Part shown: positions 11,575 to 49,078 of the stretch, piece after piece
How the letters are laid out: each line of letters begins with the position of its first letter
Position numbering within the stretch: position 1 is the first letter of the stretch
DNA from: Eledone cirrhosa
Lineage: Eukaryota
Direction: 5' to 3'
Assembly: GCA_964016885.1 (NCBI GenBank)
Contig: OZ024743.1
Span: forward strand, 156,612,001-156,676,000
Length of the DNA stretch: 64,000 nucleotides
The notes under the pieces: generated by a model
Databases searched by the model: none
What the model was told of the DNA's origin: nothing
The model's input: the letters and a program-made list of their open reading frames with translations, nothing else
Translations under genes and position numbers: made by a program

Positions 11575-11577
<3 letters not shown>

Positions 11578-12310
11578 AAATAATTTTAGTTAAATTAAAT
11601 TAAAGTAGTCATGTCAAAGATTCCACTGAATAGATCTGAGCAGTTTATATCAAGTAGTAATTGATTGATATATATATATATTTAAAATAAACACATGAAA
11701 CAATCACAAGGGATAATTTGTAAAGTGTGTAATCACACACAGCTAGGTAGGTAACTAATTGAAGTTTAACTAGATCTTCAAATATTACCTTCAGTGGAAT
11801 ATTTGAGTTTATTCTACAATGGGTATGGCGCATATCTCGGACATGACTCCTTTAATTTTTTTTAACTAAAATTATTTCGGATATATAAACGGCTCCTTAT
11901 CTGTAGAGCTATATCGGTTGAAAGGACTTGGCTGCTATTTATAGCTGTCGACCACCCTATTCACGCCAATGGGAGGACGCTAGCATGTTGTTAGTAGTTT
12001 TAGAATTGCAGCACGTGCGAAGGGTCACTCGCAAGTTTGCATTTGATGCGTAAACACAGACAGTTATTTATTTCTCCTTGCTCATGATCTAACTTCTACT
12101 GTGACATTACGGATTTTTAGTGAAATATATTTCTTTAATGAAATATATACAAGGAGGATTAATCATGTTTTAAAAGGTAATATTTGAAGATCTAGTTAAT
12201 CTTTAATTAGTTACCTACCTAGCTGTGTGTGATTACACACTTTACAAATTATCCCCTATGATTGTTTCATGTGTTTATTTTAAATATATATACGTCAATC
12301 AATTTCTAGT

Positions 12311-12316
<6 letters not shown>
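11575..12316. mobile_element. Non-autonomous element with ~140-bp inverted arms, embedded in (TA)n
   Basis: 11648-11791 approximates the reverse complement of 12173-12316. 11576-11620 approximates the reverse complement of 11835-11879. Confidence 0.6.
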
Positions 12317-12395
<79 letters not shown>

Positions 12396-12569
12396 AGTAG
12401 AAGGGGTATTTAATTTGTTGGAAGTCCGACAAATATAAATGTGTATAACTGATTTAGAGCACTCAACAGCTTACTGGAGTAAATATTCAATGATATTAGA
12501 TAAATGGAAACTATATTTGTAAAACCATATTTATTTTATTATATATATTTCGAGGGTTCCAAGACAACA

Positions 12570-13215
12570 TTATCATTAAGCGTAAAAACACCTTTAGCAA
12601 AGCTGTTCTTTAAAGCACTAGATAAATGTTTTCCTAAAGCCCATAGATACCACTCAATCTTTAACAGACATACTATAAAACTATCCTACTCTACTACTAT
12701 GAACATAGCACAAAATATAAATAGAATTAATAATAGAAATTTAAACCCTAACCAAAATAACCAAAATAGCAGTAATATCTCTAGCAATATGTAACTGTAG
12801 AATTAACTCAAACTGTCCTTTACAAAATAAGTGTTTAGATAAGAACGTGGTCTATGAATGTACAGTTAAAACCAGTGATAATATATTTAACTATGTAGGT
12901 GCAACCTCTACAGAATTTAAAAGTCGCTGGAATAATCACAAATACTGTTTCCGAAGATTTGATAAAACATCTTCAACTTCTCTTTCAAACCTGATATGGA
13001 ACTTAAAATGCAAGAATATGGACTATTCATTAACTTGGGAAATAGTTTGAAAAGCACCCGTGTACCGAACCACAGCTTTATCTAGATTCTGCAAATTTTG
13101 TGTTGAGGAAATGTTTTTCATACTTAAATGTAAGAACTCTATTAATCAAAGAACGAATTTATTTAATTCTTGTAGACATCGCCTGAATTCAACATTCAGA
13201 ACTATATATAAATTA
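12570..13215 (+). pseudogene. PLE linker + GIY-YIG endonuclease remnant
   Basis: ORF-track pieces 12504..12794 and 12847..13050 are homologous to the C-terminus of the 19265..20362 ORF. Confidence 0.85.
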
Positions 13216-13393
13216 TAATTATATTTATAATATTTCTACTTATTTCCATAACAATCTTATCCACTTGGTTTTAATATATTGATATCATCTAAACCATAAT
13301 GTCTATAACATTTGCTATAATTCCACTTCTTAAAGTTTCATAAAATATATACATATATAATCTAATTTTTTTTTAAATTTAAATTTTAATTGT

Positions 13394-15801
13394 AATATAG
13401 ACATAGAATATTCGAAAATATTCTGTATGTTTATAATAAACATTTTGAAGACCTAATCGCTATAGAATAGAATACGTCACGTATTACAATTAGATTCTCG
13501 ATAAAAGCAAGGGAAGTAATCTACGCGTTTCATTCTCGTTAGAAATCATCAGGACTACATATCCAGTGCTTTTATCGAGAATGACACAGCTAGAGACTTA
13601 TAGAATACTTAGCTGTGTACAGGAACTGGTTTGAAAGAGCGGTTGCCGGTCCGGCAGAAATTAGAAATTGGAATAAATGCTCTGAAATAGCGATATATAT
13701 GTGAATATAGACATAGAATATTCGAAAATATTCTGTATGTTTATAATAAACATTTTGAAGACCTAATCGCTATAGAATAGAATACGTCACGTATTACAAT
13801 TAGATTCTCGATAAAAGCAAGGGAAGTAATCTACGCGTTTCATTCTCGTTAGAAATCATCAGGACTACATATCCAGTGCTTTTATCGAGAATGACACAGA
13901 TTCACATATATATCGCTATTTCAGAGCATTTATTCCAATTTCTAATTTCTGCCGGACCGGCAACCGCTCTTTCAAACCAGTTCCTGTACACAGCTAAGTA
14001 TTCTATAAGTCTCTAGCTGTGTCATTCTCGATAAAAGCACTGGATATGTAGTCCTGATGATTTCTAACGAGAATGAAACGCGTAGATTACTTCCCTTGCT
14101 TTTATCGAGAATCTAATTGTAATACGTGACGTATTCTATTCTATAGCGATTAGGTCTTCAAAATGTTTATTATAAACATACAGAATATTTTCGAATATTC
14201 TATGTCTATATTCACATATATATCGCTATTTCAGAGCATTTATTCCAATTTCTAATTTCTGCCGGACCGGCAACCGCTCTTTCAAACCAGTTCCTGTACA
14301 CAGCTAAGTATTCTATAAGTCTCTAGCTGTGTCATTCTCGATAAAAGCACTGGATATGTAGTCCTGATGATTTCTAACGAGAATGAAACGCGTAGATTAC
14401 TTCCCTTGCTTTTATCGAGAATCTAATTGTAATACGTGACGTATTCTATTCTATAGCGATTAGGTCTTCAAAATGTTTATTATAAACATACAGAATATTT
14501 TCGAATATTCTATGTCTATATTCACATATATATCGCTATTTCAGAGCATTTATTCCAATTTCTAATTTCTGCCGGACCGGCAACCGCTCTTTCAAACCAG
14601 TTCCTGTACACAGCTAAGTATTCTATAAGTCTCTAGCTGTGTCATTCTCGATAAAAGCACTGGATATGTAGTCCTGATGATTTCTAACGAGAATGAAACG
14701 CGTAGATTACTTCCCTTGCTTTTATCGAGAATCTAATTGTAATACGTGACGTATTCTATTCTATAGCGATTAGGTCTTCAAAATGTTTATTATAAACATA
14801 CAGAATATTTTCGAATATTCTATGTCTATATTCACATATATATCGCTATTTCAGAGCATTTATTCCAATTTCTAATTTCTGCCGGACCGGCAACCGCTCT
14901 TTCAAACCAGTTCCTGTACACAGCTAAGTATTCTATAAGTCTCTAGCTGTGTCATTCTCGATAAAAGCACTGGATATGTAGTCCTGATGATTTCTAACGA
15001 GAATGAAACGCGTAGATTACTTCCCTTGCTTTTATCGAGAATCTAATTGTAATACGTGACGTATTCTATTCTATAGCGATTAGGTCTTCAAAATGTTTAT
15101 TATAAACATACAGAATATTTTCGAATATTCTATGTCTATATTCACATATATATCGCTATTTCAGAGCATTTATTCCAATTTCTAATTTCTGCCGGACCGG
15201 CAACCGCTCTTTCAAACCAGTTCCTGTACACAGCTAAGTATTCTATAAGTCTCTAGCTGTGTCATTCTCGATAAAAGCACTGGATATGTAGTCCTGATGA
15301 TTTCTAACGAGAATGAAACGCGTAGATTACTTCCCTTGCTTTTATCGAGAATCTAATTGTAATACGTGACGTATTCTATTCTATAGCGATTAGGTCTTCA
15401 AAATGTTTATTATAAACATACAGAATATTTTCGAATATTCTATGTCTATATTCACATATATATCGCTATTTCAGAGCATTTATTCCAATTTCTAATTTCT
15501 GCCGGACCGGCAACCGCTCTTTCAAACCAGTTCCTGTACACAGCTAAGTATTCTATAAGTCTCTAGCTGTGTCATTCTCGATAAAAGCACTGGATATGTA
15601 GTCCTGATGATTTCTAACGAGAATGAAACGCGTAGATTACTTCCCTTGCTTTTATCGAGAATCTAATTGTAATACGTGACGTATTCTATTCTATAGCGAT
15701 TAGGTCTTCAAAATGTTTATTATAAACATACAGAATATTTTCGAATATTCTATGTCTATATTCACATATATATCGCTATTTCAGAGCATTTATTCCAATT
15801 T
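13394..15801. mobile_element. Retrozyme-like tandem array of 310-bp HHR-containing units: 1.6 units on - (13394-13899), then 6.1 units on + (13900-15801), with a 15-bp TSD
   Basis: ttcacatata recurs at 13901, 14211, 14521, 14831, 15141, 15451 and 15761 (period 310). Units look identical by eye. TTTTAATTGTAATAT occurs at 13384-13398 and 15800-15814. Confidence 0.92.
14048..14090 (+). ncRNA. Type I hammerhead ribozyme (further copies at 14358, 14668, 14978, 15288, 15598 on +; 13516-13558 and 13826-13868 on -)
   Basis: GUAGUC-CUGAUGA-U(UUCU aacg AGAA)U-GAAA-CGCG-UA^GAUUAC. Stem I is 6 bp, stem III is the palindrome ACGCGU, predicted cleavage after 14084. Confidence 0.9.
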
Positions 15802-16596
15802 TTAATTGTAATATTTAATCTTAATAATTTTTAATTCTTTATTTGTATTTCTTTAATTTTTATTTCTTTTAAAAATGACTTATAAATCATTTTTTTTTAA
15901 ATGTTCTCACATTTTTAATATTTTTTCAATATATTTTATTAGATTTATAACCACTAACTGATTCTGGCTAAATATATATTTCAACATTTATACTTATTAT
16001 GACTAAATAGTCTCATACTAAGGAATAAATAAATTAAACTGGAGTTTTTCCGTATCTTCCAATTTTAAAATATATAAATATAAATATTCTTATTAACTCT
16101 ATTTTAATTTAACTTAATATTTACTTACATTAAATACAAAACCAATATCGCTCATAGCTCATTAAAACAATTATCTATCATATGATATACCCATCTATTT
16201 ATTTATTTATTTATGTATGTATCTACTTATAGCAGAAAATATTATATTATCAACGAATTTTAAACAACTAATAATCGTAAATACACTTCTATTAAGATAT
16301 ATACTTAGAACATATTTCCCCCAAATTAACGTTATATGAGTTTCATTCATCCTCTCTTGTTTATTTCTTCTCTCTCCCTCTCTCGTACTATTTTTTTATC
16401 TTTCTCCCCTTATATATTCGCTCTCTCTTTCTCCAGTGTCGTTTAAGTAAACGGTTGTTTTTCAATTATTTGCATATTCATTTGCATATTCACAGATAGT
16501 GTGAATAATCCCTAATATATTTCCACTATCCAGTGAATTTCCAACCGATAAGGTATGATTGTTATGGGTATGTCTCTATATATAAAACAAACTTTG

Positions 16597-16660
16597 TATT
16601 TTATCTGACGAAAGCGTACCAATGTTGTCTTGGTACCCTTGAAATATATATAATAAAATA
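16597..16660 (+). ncRNA. Type I hammerhead ribozyme at the PLE 3' end
   Basis: UAUUUUAU-CUGACGA-AAGcGUACCA..UGGUACcCUU-GAAA-UAUAUA-UA^AUAAAAUA. Confidence 0.85.
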
Positions 16661-16699
16661 AATATGGTTTTATAAATATAGTTTCCATTTATTTAATAT

Positions 16700-16785
<86 letters not shown>

Positions 16786-17421: not shown

Positions 17422-18223
17422 TATATATATATATATATTTCAGTGTATATCCCTCATGGTAGATATATGTAAATATAAGCATGTGTTGGTGTGTATATAT
17501 GTGCAGTGTAGTGTTAAAATATAGATTGCATAGATACATGTATTTACTGTTCCATGAACAAGTCTAACAGTTTCAATACAATTCATCTGCTGGGCTACTT
17601 GGTTTCATTAATTATTAAGTCCTTATAATCCCTCAAGGTGTCTTCCAAGAGTAAAGTAATGTTTAAACCAGTATCGTTCAGTGATCTGATTTCCCCCAAC
17701 CCCGATCAACTGGCAGTTATAGTTCAGTTCTTGATGTTGTCATCTGAGCATGTGGACAGCTGTTGTTGTTCGCTTGTGTCCTGTGATGATAGCATTGATG
17801 TTATCCTGAAAGGAACAAACAATTGTGACTTATAATGGAGTTGAAGATTTTGTTGTATTTGTGTCATCGAATGTGGGCAGGAATGTTTTAACTATGTTTA
17901 TAGACACATAGATTTAAATGATGATTGTAGGGGTTTGTGTTTCTTTTACCAAATTAATATAGCTTGGGTTCGATTCGTCGATGCACGTTAGGTGTTTCCT
18001 TACATTAAAGTCTCACTAGTGCTTCTTCATGAGGCAATCCTGTGCAACATATCTATTTCCTATGATAAGCTGCACTGTTTTCTCCTAATCCTGTTTAATA
18101 TGTATATACCTACATCTGGTTTGGTTGTTCTTGTTTCATGAATATATTATGTTTCCTCAATAGAAACCTTCTCACTCCCTCTCTATATCTTTGAGTCTGG
18201 ATGTGTGCATGTGTGCGCATGTT

Positions 18224-18268
<45 letters not shown>

Positions 18269-19264
18269 TAAAATAACAGATTAAAGTTTAATCAAAGAAT
18301 CGCTGTTTTCACCCTTAACGGGATCTTCTGAAACTAACAAAGTCAATCTGTAAACGCAGAACTGGATATTTCAAAAAACGTTGCAACCAGAGGAAGACAG
18401 GAAGACGATACTTTGGTTCGTGGAAACGTTCGCTGGTGAAGAACGGGAAAAAACGAATAATACGTCATTAATAGGAGCGGTGAAAAACAATTACGCGCAA
18501 AGACAGAACAACGTTTATGGTATAAAAGAGGTCGTAGACTAATGTTCTCTTAGGTGGTGCATAGAGACGTTCTCTGGCAATGAACGAAAAAACGAAGATA
18601 ATAAGTCATATGTGGAGCGTGGAGAACAATAGCACGCAAAGACAAAACCACGTAAATGGTATAGCAGAAGTTGTAGACTAAAATTCTAACTAGGAGACCA
18701 AACGAATCTCCGCTACAGAGTTAAGAACAAAGTAAATAAATACAATACAGAAGTAATAGAAACAAATAAATACATACACGCAAACAGATACGTACATACA
18801 CAAGCATACGCAAAACCTTACCATAGGTATACAAAACCACGCACATATAAATATGTGTGTGTGTGTATGCTTGTGTACAAATAAATAAATAATTATATAA
18901 ACGTATATAAGTAAATAAATACTTATATAACAAGCGCACACACATACCTACAAATAAATACACGAATGTTCGAAGACGTAAGTCAACTAAAACAAGAAGT
19001 ACACATATACACACACCCACCATACGTACGAACCTGCATACTCACGCAGACGCAAAACTCCCATATACACATAGACAAACCCTAAATACCAGAATATGTA
19101 AAAATTATACGCCATAACAGTCAAATATACGTACGAGAAGGTATACATACCTTCACAAAATATACATGGTAATATATACTTACCTATGCAAATAAGTAAA
19201 GGAATAAACAAAACATATTCTTAGCTCCCACATCAATACGTAAAATATGCACGTAAAGATCGTG

Positions 19265-21393
19265 CTATCCGTTAGGGTATAACGTGGGGCTGTAATACAG
19301 GAAAGTTTTGTGCAATTTATGTTTACAAGCCGAAATTGCCTCAGATTTTTTGTTTAAGATGTGGTCTGTGGCGTAGAGTATTTCCAGGGCCTCAGCGGCG
19401 CAGAGGTCACATGGTCTTTTATTTCCGTTATACGATCTAGCCCTAGCTAGGATCTCCAAGTGTAAATTATATTGGGTGTGGTTGTCTTTTAGACTCCAGA
19501 TATAAGCTGAAAGTGACGTCATATTCCTTCTTAGAGGGTAACGAAAAGAATGGGTATGCATGTAAAGACGCTGCTTGAAACTATTGGCGGTTAACCCTAT
19601 GTAGGCCCTACGGGACGTGGGTGTTACAACCTTACATTTATAGACAATGTTACTAGAGAGGCATTTCCCGGATAGGGGACAATCAGCCCGATTCCTACAA
19701 TTACAGTTAGTACTAACTACAGGGTTGCACGTGTTCCTACGGCTAGGTAGTTTTGCTAAATTTGAAGCTGTGATGTTATGTGCAAGGTTAGGAGTCGTAG
19801 AGTAAAACATTTTAATCGTATTTCTATTAAAAAATTTACTATGTTTATGCGTAGGGGGAAAATGCTTCGTAATAAGGGAAAGAAAGATGTTAGCTAATGG
19901 TTTGGCCACCTCCACATTATATGGTGGGTTAAACCAACAAATACGACGGGATCTATTTCTTCTAGGTCTATTTTCGTACTCTGTATATGCTACCTTATCG
20001 ACAAATCCACTTCGAGCAAGAGCTTCATTGTAATAAGTGGAATGGTCGTCGAAAATGCGCTCGTTGGTGGAAAGACGGGAAAGCCTCAACGAAACGTTTT
20101 TTACCAGGTTCTTGGTTATGCTGGCAGGATGGTTGGAATGCTTACTTATGTAATTAAGCGTATCATTCGGCTTTCTATACGGGTAATACAACCCATTCAA
20201 TAAATTGAGGGTAACGTCGAGGTAATTAACGACTGAGAGATTGGCCTCAACCTGTATAGAGTGGTTGAAGCCTTTAAAGAAGGCTGTGAGTTCTTTTCTG
20301 AACCTGTCGCAAGCACGAGGTCCGCACTTAGTCATGGTCAAAAGACCATCGTCACGGTACAAACCACCCCCGCGTTGGGGAATTCGTCCTTGATAGAGAA
20401 AAGAAGGAAAAGGCCAATAAGATCAGTAACCTCCGCAGAGTGACTGGCGCACATACTCGCGTCGAATGGGGTACTATTGGATTGTTTAATCCAAATAGAG
20501 TCGTCGAAATTAATCACCGGCTTTCGGGCATTAAGGATGACATCAACTTCGAAATCCTTAACCACTGTGAGTGTTTTAGCGAAATTGATAGCTCTAAGGA
20601 GAAGTGGTAAAGTAATGGAGGAGTAGTAATTGTTGATGTCGAATTGGATAAAACGGCAATGTTCCTTGTTACATATGCCGTTGAACCAATCAATCACCGC
20701 GAAAGAATTGTTCCACAGTGCGAGAGGGGCCAAACTTAAAATTTCAGGTATAATTCTATCAAGAATCGTTTTACTAAGTCTACCTAAATCGGACTTCGTG
20801 GGGTTAATAAGCCGAATAGAGGGGTTGTTCGGAAAATTGGATTTGTGATCCTTCAGTGTAAAGTGGGGAGAGATAGAGTCCAGAGGTTCGGTCCGGTCCA
20901 GGATGTTGAGATCAGATGTGATTTTAAACCCAGCATCGTTGATTTCATTGACGACACACCGATTAGTTTTACGGTAATCCTTAGTTACAGCATTATGTAG
21001 TAGTTGATGGTAAGTACTGCGCTCCACTTGATATAGGTTGCCAGTTTTGTCGGAATGGACGTGCACGGCGTTAGAATCCTTAATATAACGAATTCTATTC
21101 TTCAGGTCTTGCTGGAAGGAATTGCTCCTATTTCGAAATTTGATACTCTGAATGAGTTCCAAGACATCATTTTCGAAGGCTAGCAATGCTGGGTTCCACG
21201 GAGGGTTATTATAGGTTTTAAATCCAAATTTATTCTGTTTGTTGTCTGCTTTTCGCGGATTATCGAAATAAAAGGCACGCCAACGCAACCTTTTAATGAA
21301 CGCGTCTGTTTTCTGTATCAGGAGTTTTAGGTATGTTTTCCTGCTTGGTACGGGTATGTTCTTTGTAGAAATATTGAGATGTTGTTTCTGCAT
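19265..21393 (-). pseudogene. PLE reverse transcriptase + GIY-YIG endonuclease, one frameshift near 20365
   Basis: DKTGNLY, RLINP, QFDINNYY, (GL)YRDDGL, YLDVT, WFNPPY, CNCRNRADCPLSGKCL, IVY..YIG..FKQRLYMH, CDLC..E, LNKKSE..CKH. Confidence 0.92.
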
Positions 21394-23017
21394 GATGAAT
21401 ATAAGTCAGTAGAGTGCTCAACCGAAGGAGCCAAATAGTAATAATAATAAAATTGAAGACTAAAATCCAAAGAGGGCTCGATAAGGAAAATATATATCAA
21501 ATATATAAGAACCGAAGAGCAAATAACAGATTAAAGTTTAAGCAAAGAATCGCTGCTTTCACCCTTAACGGGATCTTCTGAAACTAACGAAGTCAATCTG
21601 TAAACGCAGAACTGGATATTTCAAAAAACGTTGCAACCGGAGGAAGACAGGAAGACGATACTTGGTTCGTGGTAACGTTCGCTGGCAAAGAAGGGGAAAA
21701 AACGAATAATACGTAATTAATGGAGCGGTGAAAAACAATTACGCGCAAAGACAGAACAACGTTTATGGTATAAAAGAGGTCGTAGACTAATGTTCTCTTA
21801 GGTGGTGCATAGAGACGTTCTCTGGCAATGAACGAAAAAACGAAGATAATAAGTCATATGTGGAGCGTGGAGAACAATAGCACGCAAAGACAAAACCACG
21901 TAAATGGTATAGCAGAAGTTGTAGACTGAAATTCTAACTAGGAGACCAAATGAATCTCCGCTACAGAGTTAAGAACAAAGTAAATAAATACAATACAGAA
22001 GTAATAGAAACAAATAAATACATACACGCAAACAGATACGTACATACACAAGCATACGCAAAACCTTACCATAGGTATACAAAACCAAGCACATATAAAT
22101 ATGTTTGTGTGTGTATGCTTGTGTACAAATAAATAAATGATTATATAAACGTATATAAGTAAATAAATACGTATATAACAAGCGCACACACATAACTACA
22201 AATAAATACACGAATGTTCGGAGACGAAAGTCAACTAAAACAAGAAGTTAAAGACCATGTGACCTCTGCGCCGCTGAGGCCCTGGACATACTCTACGCCA
22301 CAGTCCACATCTTAAACAAAAAATCTGAGGCAATTTCGGCTTGTAAACATAAATTGCACAAAACTTTCCTGTATTACAGCCCCACGTTATACCCTAACGG
22401 ATAGCACGATCTATACGTGGATATTTTACGTCTTGATGTGGGAGCTAAATATATGTTTTGTTTATTCCTTTACTTTTTTGCATAGGTCAGTATATATTAC
22501 CCGTATGTTTTGTGAAGGTATGTATACCTTCTCGTACGTATATTTGACTGTTATGGCGTATAATTTTTACATATTCTGGTATTTAGGGTTTGTCTATGTG
22601 TATACGGGAGTTTTGCGTCTGCGTGAGTATGCAGGTTCGTACGTATGGTGGGTGTGTGTATATGTGTACTTCTTGTTTTAGTTGACTTACGTCTCCGAAC
22701 ATTCGTGTATTTATTTGTAGGTATGTGTGTGCGCTTGTTATATACGTATTTATTTACTTATATACGTTTATATAATTATTTATTTATTTGTACACAAGCA
22801 TACACACACAAACATATTTATATGTGCGTGGTTTTGTATACCTATGGTAAGATTTTGCGTATGCTTGTGTATGTACGTATCTGTTGTGTATGTACGTATT
22901 ATTTTCCGTTTCTTTGCCAGCGAACGTTTCCACGAACCAAAGTATCGTCTTCCTGTCTTCCTCCGGTTGCAACGTTTTTTGAAATATCCAGTTCTGCGTT
23001 TACAGATTGACTTTGTT

Positions 23018-23068
23018 AGTTTCAGAAGATCCCGTTAAGGGTGAAAGCAGCGATTCTTTGCTTAAACT
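23018..23068 (+). ncRNA. Hammerhead-like fold with non-canonical CAGAAGA core in the Naiad pLTR (also - at 18285-18335, 21535-21585, 28593-28643, ~47504-47553)
   Basis: AGUUU-CAGAAGA-U(CCC guuaa GGG)U-GAAA-GCAG..UUGC-UU^AAACU, with stem I extended by ACAGAUUGA/UUAAUCUGU. Confidence 0.65.
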
Positions 23069-23165
23069 TTAATCTGTTATTTTAATAAATATTTGTTCTT
23101 CGGTTCTTATATATTTGATATATATTTTCCTTATCGAGCCCTCTTTGGATTTTAGTCTTCGATTT

Positions 23166-23319
<154 letters not shown>

Positions 23320-26773: not shown

Positions 26774-29065
<2,292 letters not shown>

Positions 29066-34708: not shown

Positions 34709-34775
34709 TTTTATCTGATGAAAACACAAATATTATTGCTTGATGATGTTTGTTTTTGAAATGCGCATAATAAAA
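34709..34775 (+). ncRNA. Type I hammerhead ribozyme related to 16597-16660
   Basis: UUUUAU-CUGAUGA-AAAcACAAAUAUUAUU gcuu GAUGAUGUUUGUUUUU-GAAA-UGCGCA-UA^AUAAAA, followed shortly by (TA)n. Confidence 0.85.
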
Positions 34776-34837
34776 TATATGGAACTCCTTTAACCATCTT
34801 TTGATCTTATATTATATATATATATATATATATATAT

Positions 34838-48355: not shown

Positions 48356-49038
48356 CGGCGATGAATTAGTTTTGCGAGGTTTTTTATATGAAATCGTGTG
48401 TCGAAACAGATATTGTTATATTTGGGGAGGGTCATATTTGCGTAATATTGCCAGAATTAATAACAGAACACACTCACTGTTTGGTTGGTTTTCGCTTCTC
48501 GCTGTCTTTTATATATATATATCTGCGATCTAACTTACTCGGTCCTCAATGTTGCCATTGACTGACCGGCGGTCAAAAATAATACAGATACAATATAGAC
48601 AAACACATATATATATAGTTTACATAAATCTTTCGTTGCACATCTGCAACATCGTCAGTGGTGTTATATTCATTGTTCCTCCTGTTGTGTTGTATGTCTA
48701 CGCCATTTTTTTTTGTTCAGTCTGTCTCAGACAGACTGAACAAAAAAAAATGGCGTAGACATACAACACAACAGGAGGAACAATGAATATAACACCACTG
48801 ACGATGTTGCAGATGTGCAACGAAAGATTTATGTAAACTATATATATATGTGTTTGTCTATATTGTATCTGTATTATTTTTGACCGCCGGTCAGTCAATG
48901 GCAACATTGAGGACCGAGTAAGTTAGATCGCAGATATATATATATAAAAGACAGCGAGAAGCGAAAACCAACCAAACAGTGAGTGTGTTCTGTTATTAAT
49001 TCTGGCAATATTACGCAAATATGACCCTCCCCAAATAT

Positions 49039-49046
<8 letters not shown>
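48354..49046. mobile_element. Perfect fold-back of the second PLE family pLTR (318-bp arms, 1-nt spacer at 48728) plus a 56-bp extension on the left arm
   Basis: 48410-48727 is the reverse complement of 48729-49046; the ORF track gives mirror-identical ORFs. Homologous to 26808-27118. HHR-like CUGACGA-uGUUGCA gaug UGCAAC-GAAA at 48798-48825 has a poor stem I. Confidence 0.92.

Positions 49047-49078
<32 letters not shown>

What the first reader, a model, noticed from the sequence alone, without database searches (positions are those of the whole stretch)
13384..15814. Recent-looking retrozyme-like insertion: ~7.8 identical 310-bp hammerhead units with an internal inversion and a 15-bp TSD
Seen: a strict 310-bp period with no differences between units that I could find by eye. 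Each unit has one canonical type I HHR (CUGAUGA/GAAA/GUA, palindromic stem III) inside a 16-bp perfect stem (14024-14039/14097-14112), plus further hairpins. There is no ORF. Two arrays sit back-to-back with a clean junction at 13899|13900, and TTTTAATTGTAATAT is duplicated on both sides. Known: metazoan non-LTR retrozymes are HHR tandem repeats that yield small circular RNAs, and palindromic stem III HHRs can act as dimers. Inference: this is one recent integration made by rolling-circle reverse transcription of a 310-nt circular RNA. It was probably mobilised by PLE machinery, because the two outward 3' ends differ by ~40 nt as in the PLEs here. It landed inside the 3' UTR of a Naiad-like PLE.
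Basis: partly seen in the sequence, partly recalled or inferred. Interest (0 to 1): 0.88.

Follow-up and report, generated by a model that had tools for sequence, protein, structure and literature searches.

The report
Two-armed hammerhead retrozyme, Penelope-style insertion
This is one young copy of a 310-base non-coding jumping repeat with a hammerhead self-cutting motif, inserted as two back-to-back multi-copy arms between a duplicated target, and the shape of its sister insertions suggests that a Penelope-type enzyme likely copied one small, probably circular RNA round and round from both sides of a DNA cut.

Summary
Observation confirmed: 1.63 + 6.14 identical 310-nt units back-to-back, type I hammerhead motif, 13-15-bp target duplication (19 paralogues of the host element lack the insert). 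It is one of roughly 1,600 insertions (estimate). Of 62 insertions with both ends readable, 60 end at two fixed unit positions about 35 nt apart, nearly always in (TA)n: the Penelope-like-element (PLE) 'tail plus inverted copy' footprint. Units differ about 7-fold less within than between insertions, 24 haplotypes occur among 53 two-armed insertions, and inner ends ignore the cleavage site, so each insertion likely came from one monomer, probably a circle. Fixed variants spare stems and core; older sister families keep the structure. Corrections: the host is a Hydra-clade PLE with its own hammerhead and a ~90-nt tail, not Naiad; no partner PLE was linked by sequence; Rfam gave no hammerhead match; cleavage and circle are untested. 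Near-identical hits in other organisms' runs look like trace contamination. A new member of animal non-LTR retrozymes; the insertion evidence was not found in the papers searched. The scan noted this same family at other loci of this genome before.

The parts
13384..13398 (+). Target-site duplication, left copy (13-15 bp; last 5 nt also match the element end)
13394..13899 (-). Left arm, 506 nt = 1.63 units, unit position 118 to 3 (the 'short' outer 3' end)
13900..15801 (+). Right arm, 1902 nt = 6.14 units, unit position 1 to 42 (the 'long' outer 3' end)
15800..15814 (+). Target-site duplication, right copy
14048..14090 (+). Type I hammerhead motif (stem I 14048-53/14085-90, core 14054-60 and 14075-78, palindromic stem III 14078-83, predicted cut after 14084); repeated every 310 nt to 15640
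   Evidence: cleavage untested; no Rfam hit
13516..13868 (-). Two further hammerhead motifs on the left arm (13826-13868, 13516-13558)
14024..14112 (+). 16-bp perfect stem enclosing the hammerhead; sister families keep a long stem here with other sequence
14182..14201 (+). 8-bp hairpin just before the short 3' end; compensatory changes across three sister families
14215..14249 (+). 35-nt 'tail' between the two fixed outer 3' ends (unit 5 and unit 40), the inferred two reverse-transcription start sites
   Evidence: PMC11167929 for the meaning of the tail
12393..16704 (+). Host: 5'-truncated, decayed Hydra-clade PLE (inverted short arm 12393-12571, C-terminal GIY-YIG about 12770-13200 with a premature stop, 3' UTR)
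16599..16656 (+). Hammerhead motif of the host PLE
   Evidence: motif scan, stems read by eye
26811..28449 (-). Truncated copy of a young Neptune/Nematis-type PLE family, a candidate source of enzyme (not linked by sequence)

Best explanation
The array is one insertion of a young, non-coding 310-nt hammerhead repeat family whose copies sit as two back-to-back multi-unit arms ending at two fixed sites about 35 nt apart, and it was likely written into the genome by a Penelope-like-element enzyme that copied a single monomeric, probably circular RNA from both ends of a staggered DNA cut. Shown: anatomy, fixed ends, (TA)n targets, target duplication, one haplotype per insertion on both arms, scattered inner ends with microhomology. 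Inferred: tandem transcripts are cut by the hammerhead (probably as dimers) and ligated to 310-nt circles; a PLE protein (probably a dimer) binds the hairpin-plus-tail module, nicks both strands of AT-rich DNA about 15 nt apart here, primes one cDNA at unit ~5 and the other at unit ~40, rolls round the circle for 0.2 to over 20 turns, and the two cDNA ends are joined by short microhomology and filled in.
For: 4033 exact copies of the 43-nt hammerhead stretch, reversed control 0; 795 forward-strand long ends next to (TA)3. Loci chosen by hammerhead alone: 9 of 10 two-armed with one short and one long end. All 71 loci: 66 back-to-back insertions; 60 of 62 with both ends readable have one short plus one long end, the other two are an assembly gap and a split arm (60 of the 70 other loci were picked by a long-end pattern, so only their short end is an unbiased test). 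Modal ends unit 5 (30) and 40 (37) of 130; 122 of 130 flanks TA-rich. Within-locus 0.38 vs between-locus 2.84 differences per unit over 357 units in 45 loci. 24 haplotypes among 53 insertions with a unit on each arm; e.g. L075 15/15 and L093 14/14 units share a haplotype seen once. Single-unit changes covered by the other arm at the same turn: 37 unshared, 2 shared. Inner ends: 1 of 132 within 5 nt of the cleavage site (4.7 expected); overlap of 2+ nt at 34 of 66 junctions vs 18% for random joins. Damaging variants: 1 of 27 fixed vs 19 of 67 sporadic, p=0.010. Hairpin covariation across three families. In vitro a PLE protein cuts AT-rich DNA, extends both strands and starts at two internal sites that define the tail (PMC11167929).
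Against: No RNA data: transcription, cleavage and circle are not shown. No Rfam hammerhead hit; stem II and III are weak. No autonomous PLE shares sequence with the unit: none in 48 Hydra-type loci, 15 Neptune-type loci or the masked window, and no PLE frame abuts the unit in 40 sister-family loci. Tails of the PLEs examined (about 90 nt and 45-59 nt) do not equal 35 nt. 11 multi-unit but unfixed variants (e.g. L082, L169) need template switching or gene conversion. In PMC11167929 ribozyme cleavage was not needed for insertion and unprocessed RNA was the main substrate. The unshared-variant test is weakened if most single changes arose after insertion.
Confidence: 0.7

Rival explanations
1. 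PLE machinery copies long linear uncleaved transcripts of existing arrays; no circle is involved, and homogeneity comes from a set of already homogeneous source arrays.
For: Internal initiation works on unprocessed linear RNA and ribozyme mutants still insert (PMC11167929); the hammerhead is predicted weak; 27 of 53 insertions share two haplotypes; a 70-locus sample of about 1,600 cannot prove a haplotype is private.
Against: Needs at least 23 separate returns to a single unit to explain 24 haplotypes fixed on both arms; only 2 of 39 testable single-unit changes are shared in register; fixed variants avoid the ribozyme core and stems; arrays reach over 21 units.
Confidence: 0.2
2. A short PLE-style insertion is expanded and homogenised afterwards at the DNA level (unequal exchange, gene conversion), as proposed for retrozyme arrays in Li et al. 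2026.
For: Some variants are shared between arms out of register or symmetric to the junction (L072, L097); the older sister family has arrays with units only 89-94% alike to their majority.
Against: Both inverted arms carry the same haplotype, outer ends and target duplications are intact, and the window array has 0 differences in 2408 nt.
Confidence: 0.06
3. The inverted arm arises by fold-back self-priming on an antisense template (model of PMC3846280 for PLE inversions), not by priming at both DNA ends.
For: Head-to-head arrangement is the one that model addresses.
Against: The two inner ends are at unrelated unit positions, with no palindrome at the junction: offsets spread over the whole unit; arms end at different fixed sites.
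Confidence: 0.03
4. The array is an assembly artefact, or the stump (pLTR) of an ordinary PLE.
For: Identical tandem repeats are prone to misassembly; no long read across this locus was seen; an earlier scan note (e1-7908855) found a similar case to be a PLE end.
Against: Locus-specific haplotypes and ends at 70 other loci, target seen once in paralogues, arms of pure units up to 21 copies and no PLE frame joined to a unit.
Confidence: 0.01

Closest known systems
Metazoan non-LTR retrozymes (Cervera and de la Pena 2020, PMC7229834; read parts 3-4 of 6 and passages; supplement could not be read)
   Same: Tandem non-coding repeats of 170-400 nt, low GC (35% here), one type I hammerhead per unit, target duplication longer than 4 bp; the hammerhead combines the two weak features of the axolotl motifs (single-pair stem III with palindromic tetraloop; U-U at the base of stem II), which cleave well only as dimers.
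   Different: That paper shows cleavage and circles but only proposes PLE mobilisation; the word 'inverted' does not occur in its main text. Here the insertion footprint is documented and the RNA is not.
Li, Clavereau and Pollet 2026 (bioRxiv 10.64898/2026.07.22.740005; parts 1-3 of 5 read, all main text before the references)
   Same: Concludes that animal retrozymes are non-autonomous PLE derivatives.
   Different: Evidence is co-occurrence and pLTR similarity; it suggests local tandem amplification and does not discuss tails or inverted arms. Here no pLTR homologue was found.
EN+ Penelope-like elements: inverted 5'-truncated copy, 30-40-bp tail, (TA)n targets (PMC8557442 passages and section 11; PMC3846280 passages; PMC11167929 parts 1-2 of 4)
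   Same: Same insertion architecture, tail length, target preference and target duplication range.
   Different: No ORF; both arms are multi-turn copies of a 310-nt unit.
L1 twin priming (recalled, no call)
   Same: Both target ends prime, giving an inverted arm, a target duplication and a microhomology junction.
   Different: Both primers start at fixed internal sites on a repeating template instead of poly(A) plus a random internal site.

Membership tests
Metazoan non-LTR retrozyme | Head-to-tail repeats of about 170-400 nt with a type I hammerhead in every unit | tested here: met
   (motif anatomy; no Rfam hit)
Metazoan non-LTR retrozyme | No coding capacity, no LTRs | tested here: met
   PBS and PPT were not searched separately
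Metazoan non-LTR retrozyme | Dispersed mobile copies with target duplications longer than 4 bp | tested here: met
   further duplications of 9-34 nt estimated at 6 chosen loci with interrupted microsatellites
Metazoan non-LTR retrozyme | Ribozyme self-cleavage | not testable with these tools
   only indirect: variant pattern, sister families with intact cores
Metazoan non-LTR retrozyme | Expressed as a monomeric circular RNA | not testable with these tools
   no RNA run available; DNA haplotype pattern is indirect
PLE-type insertion (works like) | Inverted 5'-truncated arm head-to-head with the main arm | tested here: met
   66 back-to-back insertions at 71 loci
PLE-type insertion (works like) | 30-40-nt tail at one outer end | tested here: met
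   60 of 62; modal ends unit 5 and 40
PLE-type insertion (works like) | (TA)n target preference | tested here: met
   122 of 130 flanks (partly selected), 9 of 10 unbiased loci two-armed in AT microsatellites
Non-autonomous derivative of a named PLE family | Shared 3'/pLTR sequence with an autonomous partner | tested here: inconclusive
   none found in the loci sampled; only two PLE groups were sampled
Autonomous PLE | RT plus GIY-YIG ORF | tested here: not met
Host as Naiad | N-terminal endonuclease, no hammerhead | tested here: not met
   C-terminal GIY-YIG, hammerhead at 16599-16656
Host as Hydra-clade PLE | C-terminal GIY-YIG, CxCX5C linker, DKT motif, hammerhead, (TA)n target | tested here: met
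   against PMC8557442 section 11; no tree was built

The most novel reading that the evidence does not exclude
These insertions are a genomic record of a PLE enzyme doing two-ended rolling-circle reverse transcription of one ribozyme-made RNA circle: the retrozyme lineage evolves as a selected RNA population (three successive families that keep a hairpin-and-tail recognition module while exchanging hammerhead variants, including a U3-A8 core), and the same two-ended priming explains the long-unexplained inverted arm and tail of PLEs in general.
Probability: 0.55. Interest if true: 0.78.

Novelty: new member of a known kind. Interest (0 to 1): 0.62.

Why it matters
How animal retrozymes get back into the genome and why PLE insertions have an inverted arm and a tail are both open questions in the papers read. 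This family gives a 310-nt minimal substrate with two mapped start sites, a conserved hairpin, well over a thousand young insertions, and, at this locus, a target outside a microsatellite where the duplication can be read. It makes PLE-driven rolling-circle copying directly testable in vitro.

Tried and rejected
DNA search of the own genome with the unit returned nothing because common words are skipped; patterns were used instead. Horizontal spread or a free viroid-like RNA: 20 runs under 18 coded organism labels hold the unit (no RNA holder listed). Rejected as most likely trace contamination: in X1, X3 and X4 other high-copy repeats of this genome are present at similar depth, and the Hi-C DNA run X23 of the same organism label as X1 has no read on the unit in 1.9 Gb; X5 looks like this species' own DNA (825-nt contig identical over 17451-18212). 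The 340-nt closed contigs cannot tell a circle from a tandem array. L1-style contiguous twin priming on one RNA (suggested by the right arm starting at unit 1): inner ends are unrelated at other loci. Partner search by sequence: negative. Pol III box patterns: none. A-to-I editing lead: A>G is 6 of 27 fixed vs 4 of 67 sporadic variants (p=0.03), but a genome pattern at one stem position gave 10 matches with no multiply edited string; G-U tolerance explains it as well. Dropped: one out-of-register row (L065) in alignment A1; the stem test had one mis-indexed stem and was redone; one search pools two insertions in L072, which inflates the within-locus figure; one search lists L061 twice. Literature: 6 searches found no paper describing two-armed PLE-footprint retrozyme insertions; subscription journals, Repbase/Dfam entries and the unreadable supplement of PMC7229834 were not seen.

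Full report
Observation. The finding is real. The right arm (13900-15801, +) and the left arm (13394-13899, -) are 1902 and 506 nt of one 310-nt unit with no mismatch, joined bluntly at 13899|13900. The 15-mer flanks both ends and occurs nowhere else in the window. Nineteen paralogues of the host element have no insert, and 18 show the target once, lacking one A, so the duplication is 13-15 bp. Each unit has a type I hammerhead motif inside a perfect 16-bp stem, with a predicted cut after 14084; stem III is one pair capped by the palindrome CGCG and stem II starts with U-U. These are the two weak features of the axolotl retrozyme ribozymes, which cleave efficiently as dimers (PMC7229834). Rfam did not recognise the motif. 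There is no ORF.

A family, not a single event. The 43-nt hammerhead stretch occurs exactly 4033 times in the 3.0-Gb genome. Long ends next to (TA)3 number 795 on one strand, which suggests about 1,600 insertions (my estimate). I mapped 70 other loci: 10 chosen by the hammerhead alone and 60 by long-end patterns. Nine of the 10 unbiased loci are two-armed with one short and one long end. Over all 71 loci there are 66 back-to-back insertions; 6 loci show one arm (one at an assembly gap, two cut by the stretch fetched, three truly one-armed). Of 62 insertions with both outer ends readable, 60 have one short and one long end; median length 2.4 kb. The modal ends are unit 5 and unit 40, and 122 of 130 flanks are TA-rich; this window is the only sampled case with no TA run at either end, which is why its duplication is readable.

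This is the PLE footprint. An inverted 5'-truncated copy, a 30-40-bp tail at one end and (TA)n targets are described for EN+ PLEs (PMC8557442; PMC3846280). In vitro, an anole PLE protein cuts AT-rich DNA, extends both strands, and starts at two internal RNA sites that define the tail (PMC11167929). The orientation here fits priming from both 3' ends of a staggered cut. The inner ends are spread over the unit and unrelated to each other, which argues against fold-back self-priming; 34 of 66 junctions overlap by 2 or more nt against 18% for random joins, 22 have inserted bases, one of them 272 nt of foreign sequence.

Template. Units differ by 0.38 positions within and 2.84 between loci (357 units, 45 loci). 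Among 53 insertions with at least one unit per arm there are 24 haplotypes, each fixed on both arms; 27 insertions share the two commonest. There are 76 single-unit substitutions in 182 kb; where the other arm covers the same turn, 37 are unshared and 2 shared. Only 1 of 132 inner ends lies within 5 nt of the cleavage site (4.7 expected), so copying runs through that site, for over 21 units in one arm. A monomer bottleneck followed by repeated copying is the simplest reading; a circle supplies both. Eleven multi-unit unfixed variants need template switching or conversion, and a linear uncleaved template is not excluded.

Selection on the RNA. One of 27 fixed variants breaks a stem or the core, against 19 of 67 sporadic ones (p=0.010). 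Two older sister families exist (2523 pattern hits for one). In the copies read they show the same two ends; they have a long stem of different sequence around the hammerhead, stronger stem III, and in one family a U3-A8 core. The hairpin before the short end shows both-sided changes at 3 of 11 pairs and 93% paired cells in 18 hand-picked sequences (the changes are few events inherited within families). I infer that hairpin plus tail is the part the enzyme recognises.

Host and partner. The host has a C-terminal GIY-YIG domain with a CxCX5C linker, a relative with a 699-aa frame and DKT motif, and its own hammerhead: Hydra clade, not Naiad. It is old (paralogues 85-92% alike) and its ends differ mostly by about 90 nt. 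A younger Neptune/Nematis-type family is abundant (150 of 150 scored hits at 97-100% identity, frames up to 1176 aa), inserts the same way, and has 45-59-nt tails, but shares no significant sequence with the unit. The partner is unidentified.

Other runs. Near-identical sequence in runs labelled with 18 organisms is best explained by trace contamination; it is not evidence of horizontal spread or expression.

Verdict. A new, very young member of the animal non-LTR retrozymes. The kind is known and the PLE link has been proposed (PMC7229834; bioRxiv 10.64898/2026.07.22.740005); the two-armed footprint with one haplotype per insertion was not found in 6 literature searches. Earlier notes of this scan describe the same 310-nt family at other loci and similar families in this and other genomes; they are unchecked AI notes and are not counted as support. 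Cleavage, circle and enzyme remain to be shown.

Noticed in passing
L123:5871-6270, L124:5708-6439, L131-L150: Older 320-nt sister family with a U3-A8 hammerhead core and 4-bp palindromic stem III, same two ends, mostly short insertions, units about 92% alike to their majority.
   Followed up: yes
L177, L180-L199: A third, older sister group with a C3-G8 core and longer stem III; stem II resembles the young family.
   Followed up: partly
window 26811-28449, 48370-49050; L201-L215: Young, very abundant Neptune/Nematis-type PLE family with asparagine-rich frames up to 1176 aa, two-armed (TA)n insertions and several long-end positions (45-59 nt).
   Followed up: partly
L073:1699-1970: 272 nt of GC-rich foreign sequence captured between the two arms; no match in the loci fetched by then.
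   Followed up: partly
L082, L087, L169, L073: Arms that switch haplotype part-way, suggesting template switching between circles or gene conversion.
   Followed up: partly
L124:5300-5705: Another two-armed hammerhead element in (TA)n with ends about 44 nt apart, unrelated in sequence.
   Followed up: no
window 18224-23170 and 19268-21405: Hydra-type PLE (about 38% identical to the host family) with direct and inverted terminal repeats and an end offset of about 85 nt; its end is a very common repeat here.
   Followed up: partly
window 34709-34815: Stub of a further PLE end with a hammerhead motif, followed by (TA)n; 21 related motifs in fetched loci end 43 or about 133 nt after the cut site.
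   Followed up: partly
L166: An arm split by about 4.1 kb of other sequence, resuming at the next unit position: likely a nested insertion.
   Followed up: no
window 11575-12312: About 740-nt element with 119-nt terminal inverted repeats between (TA)n runs, MITE-like.
   Followed up: no
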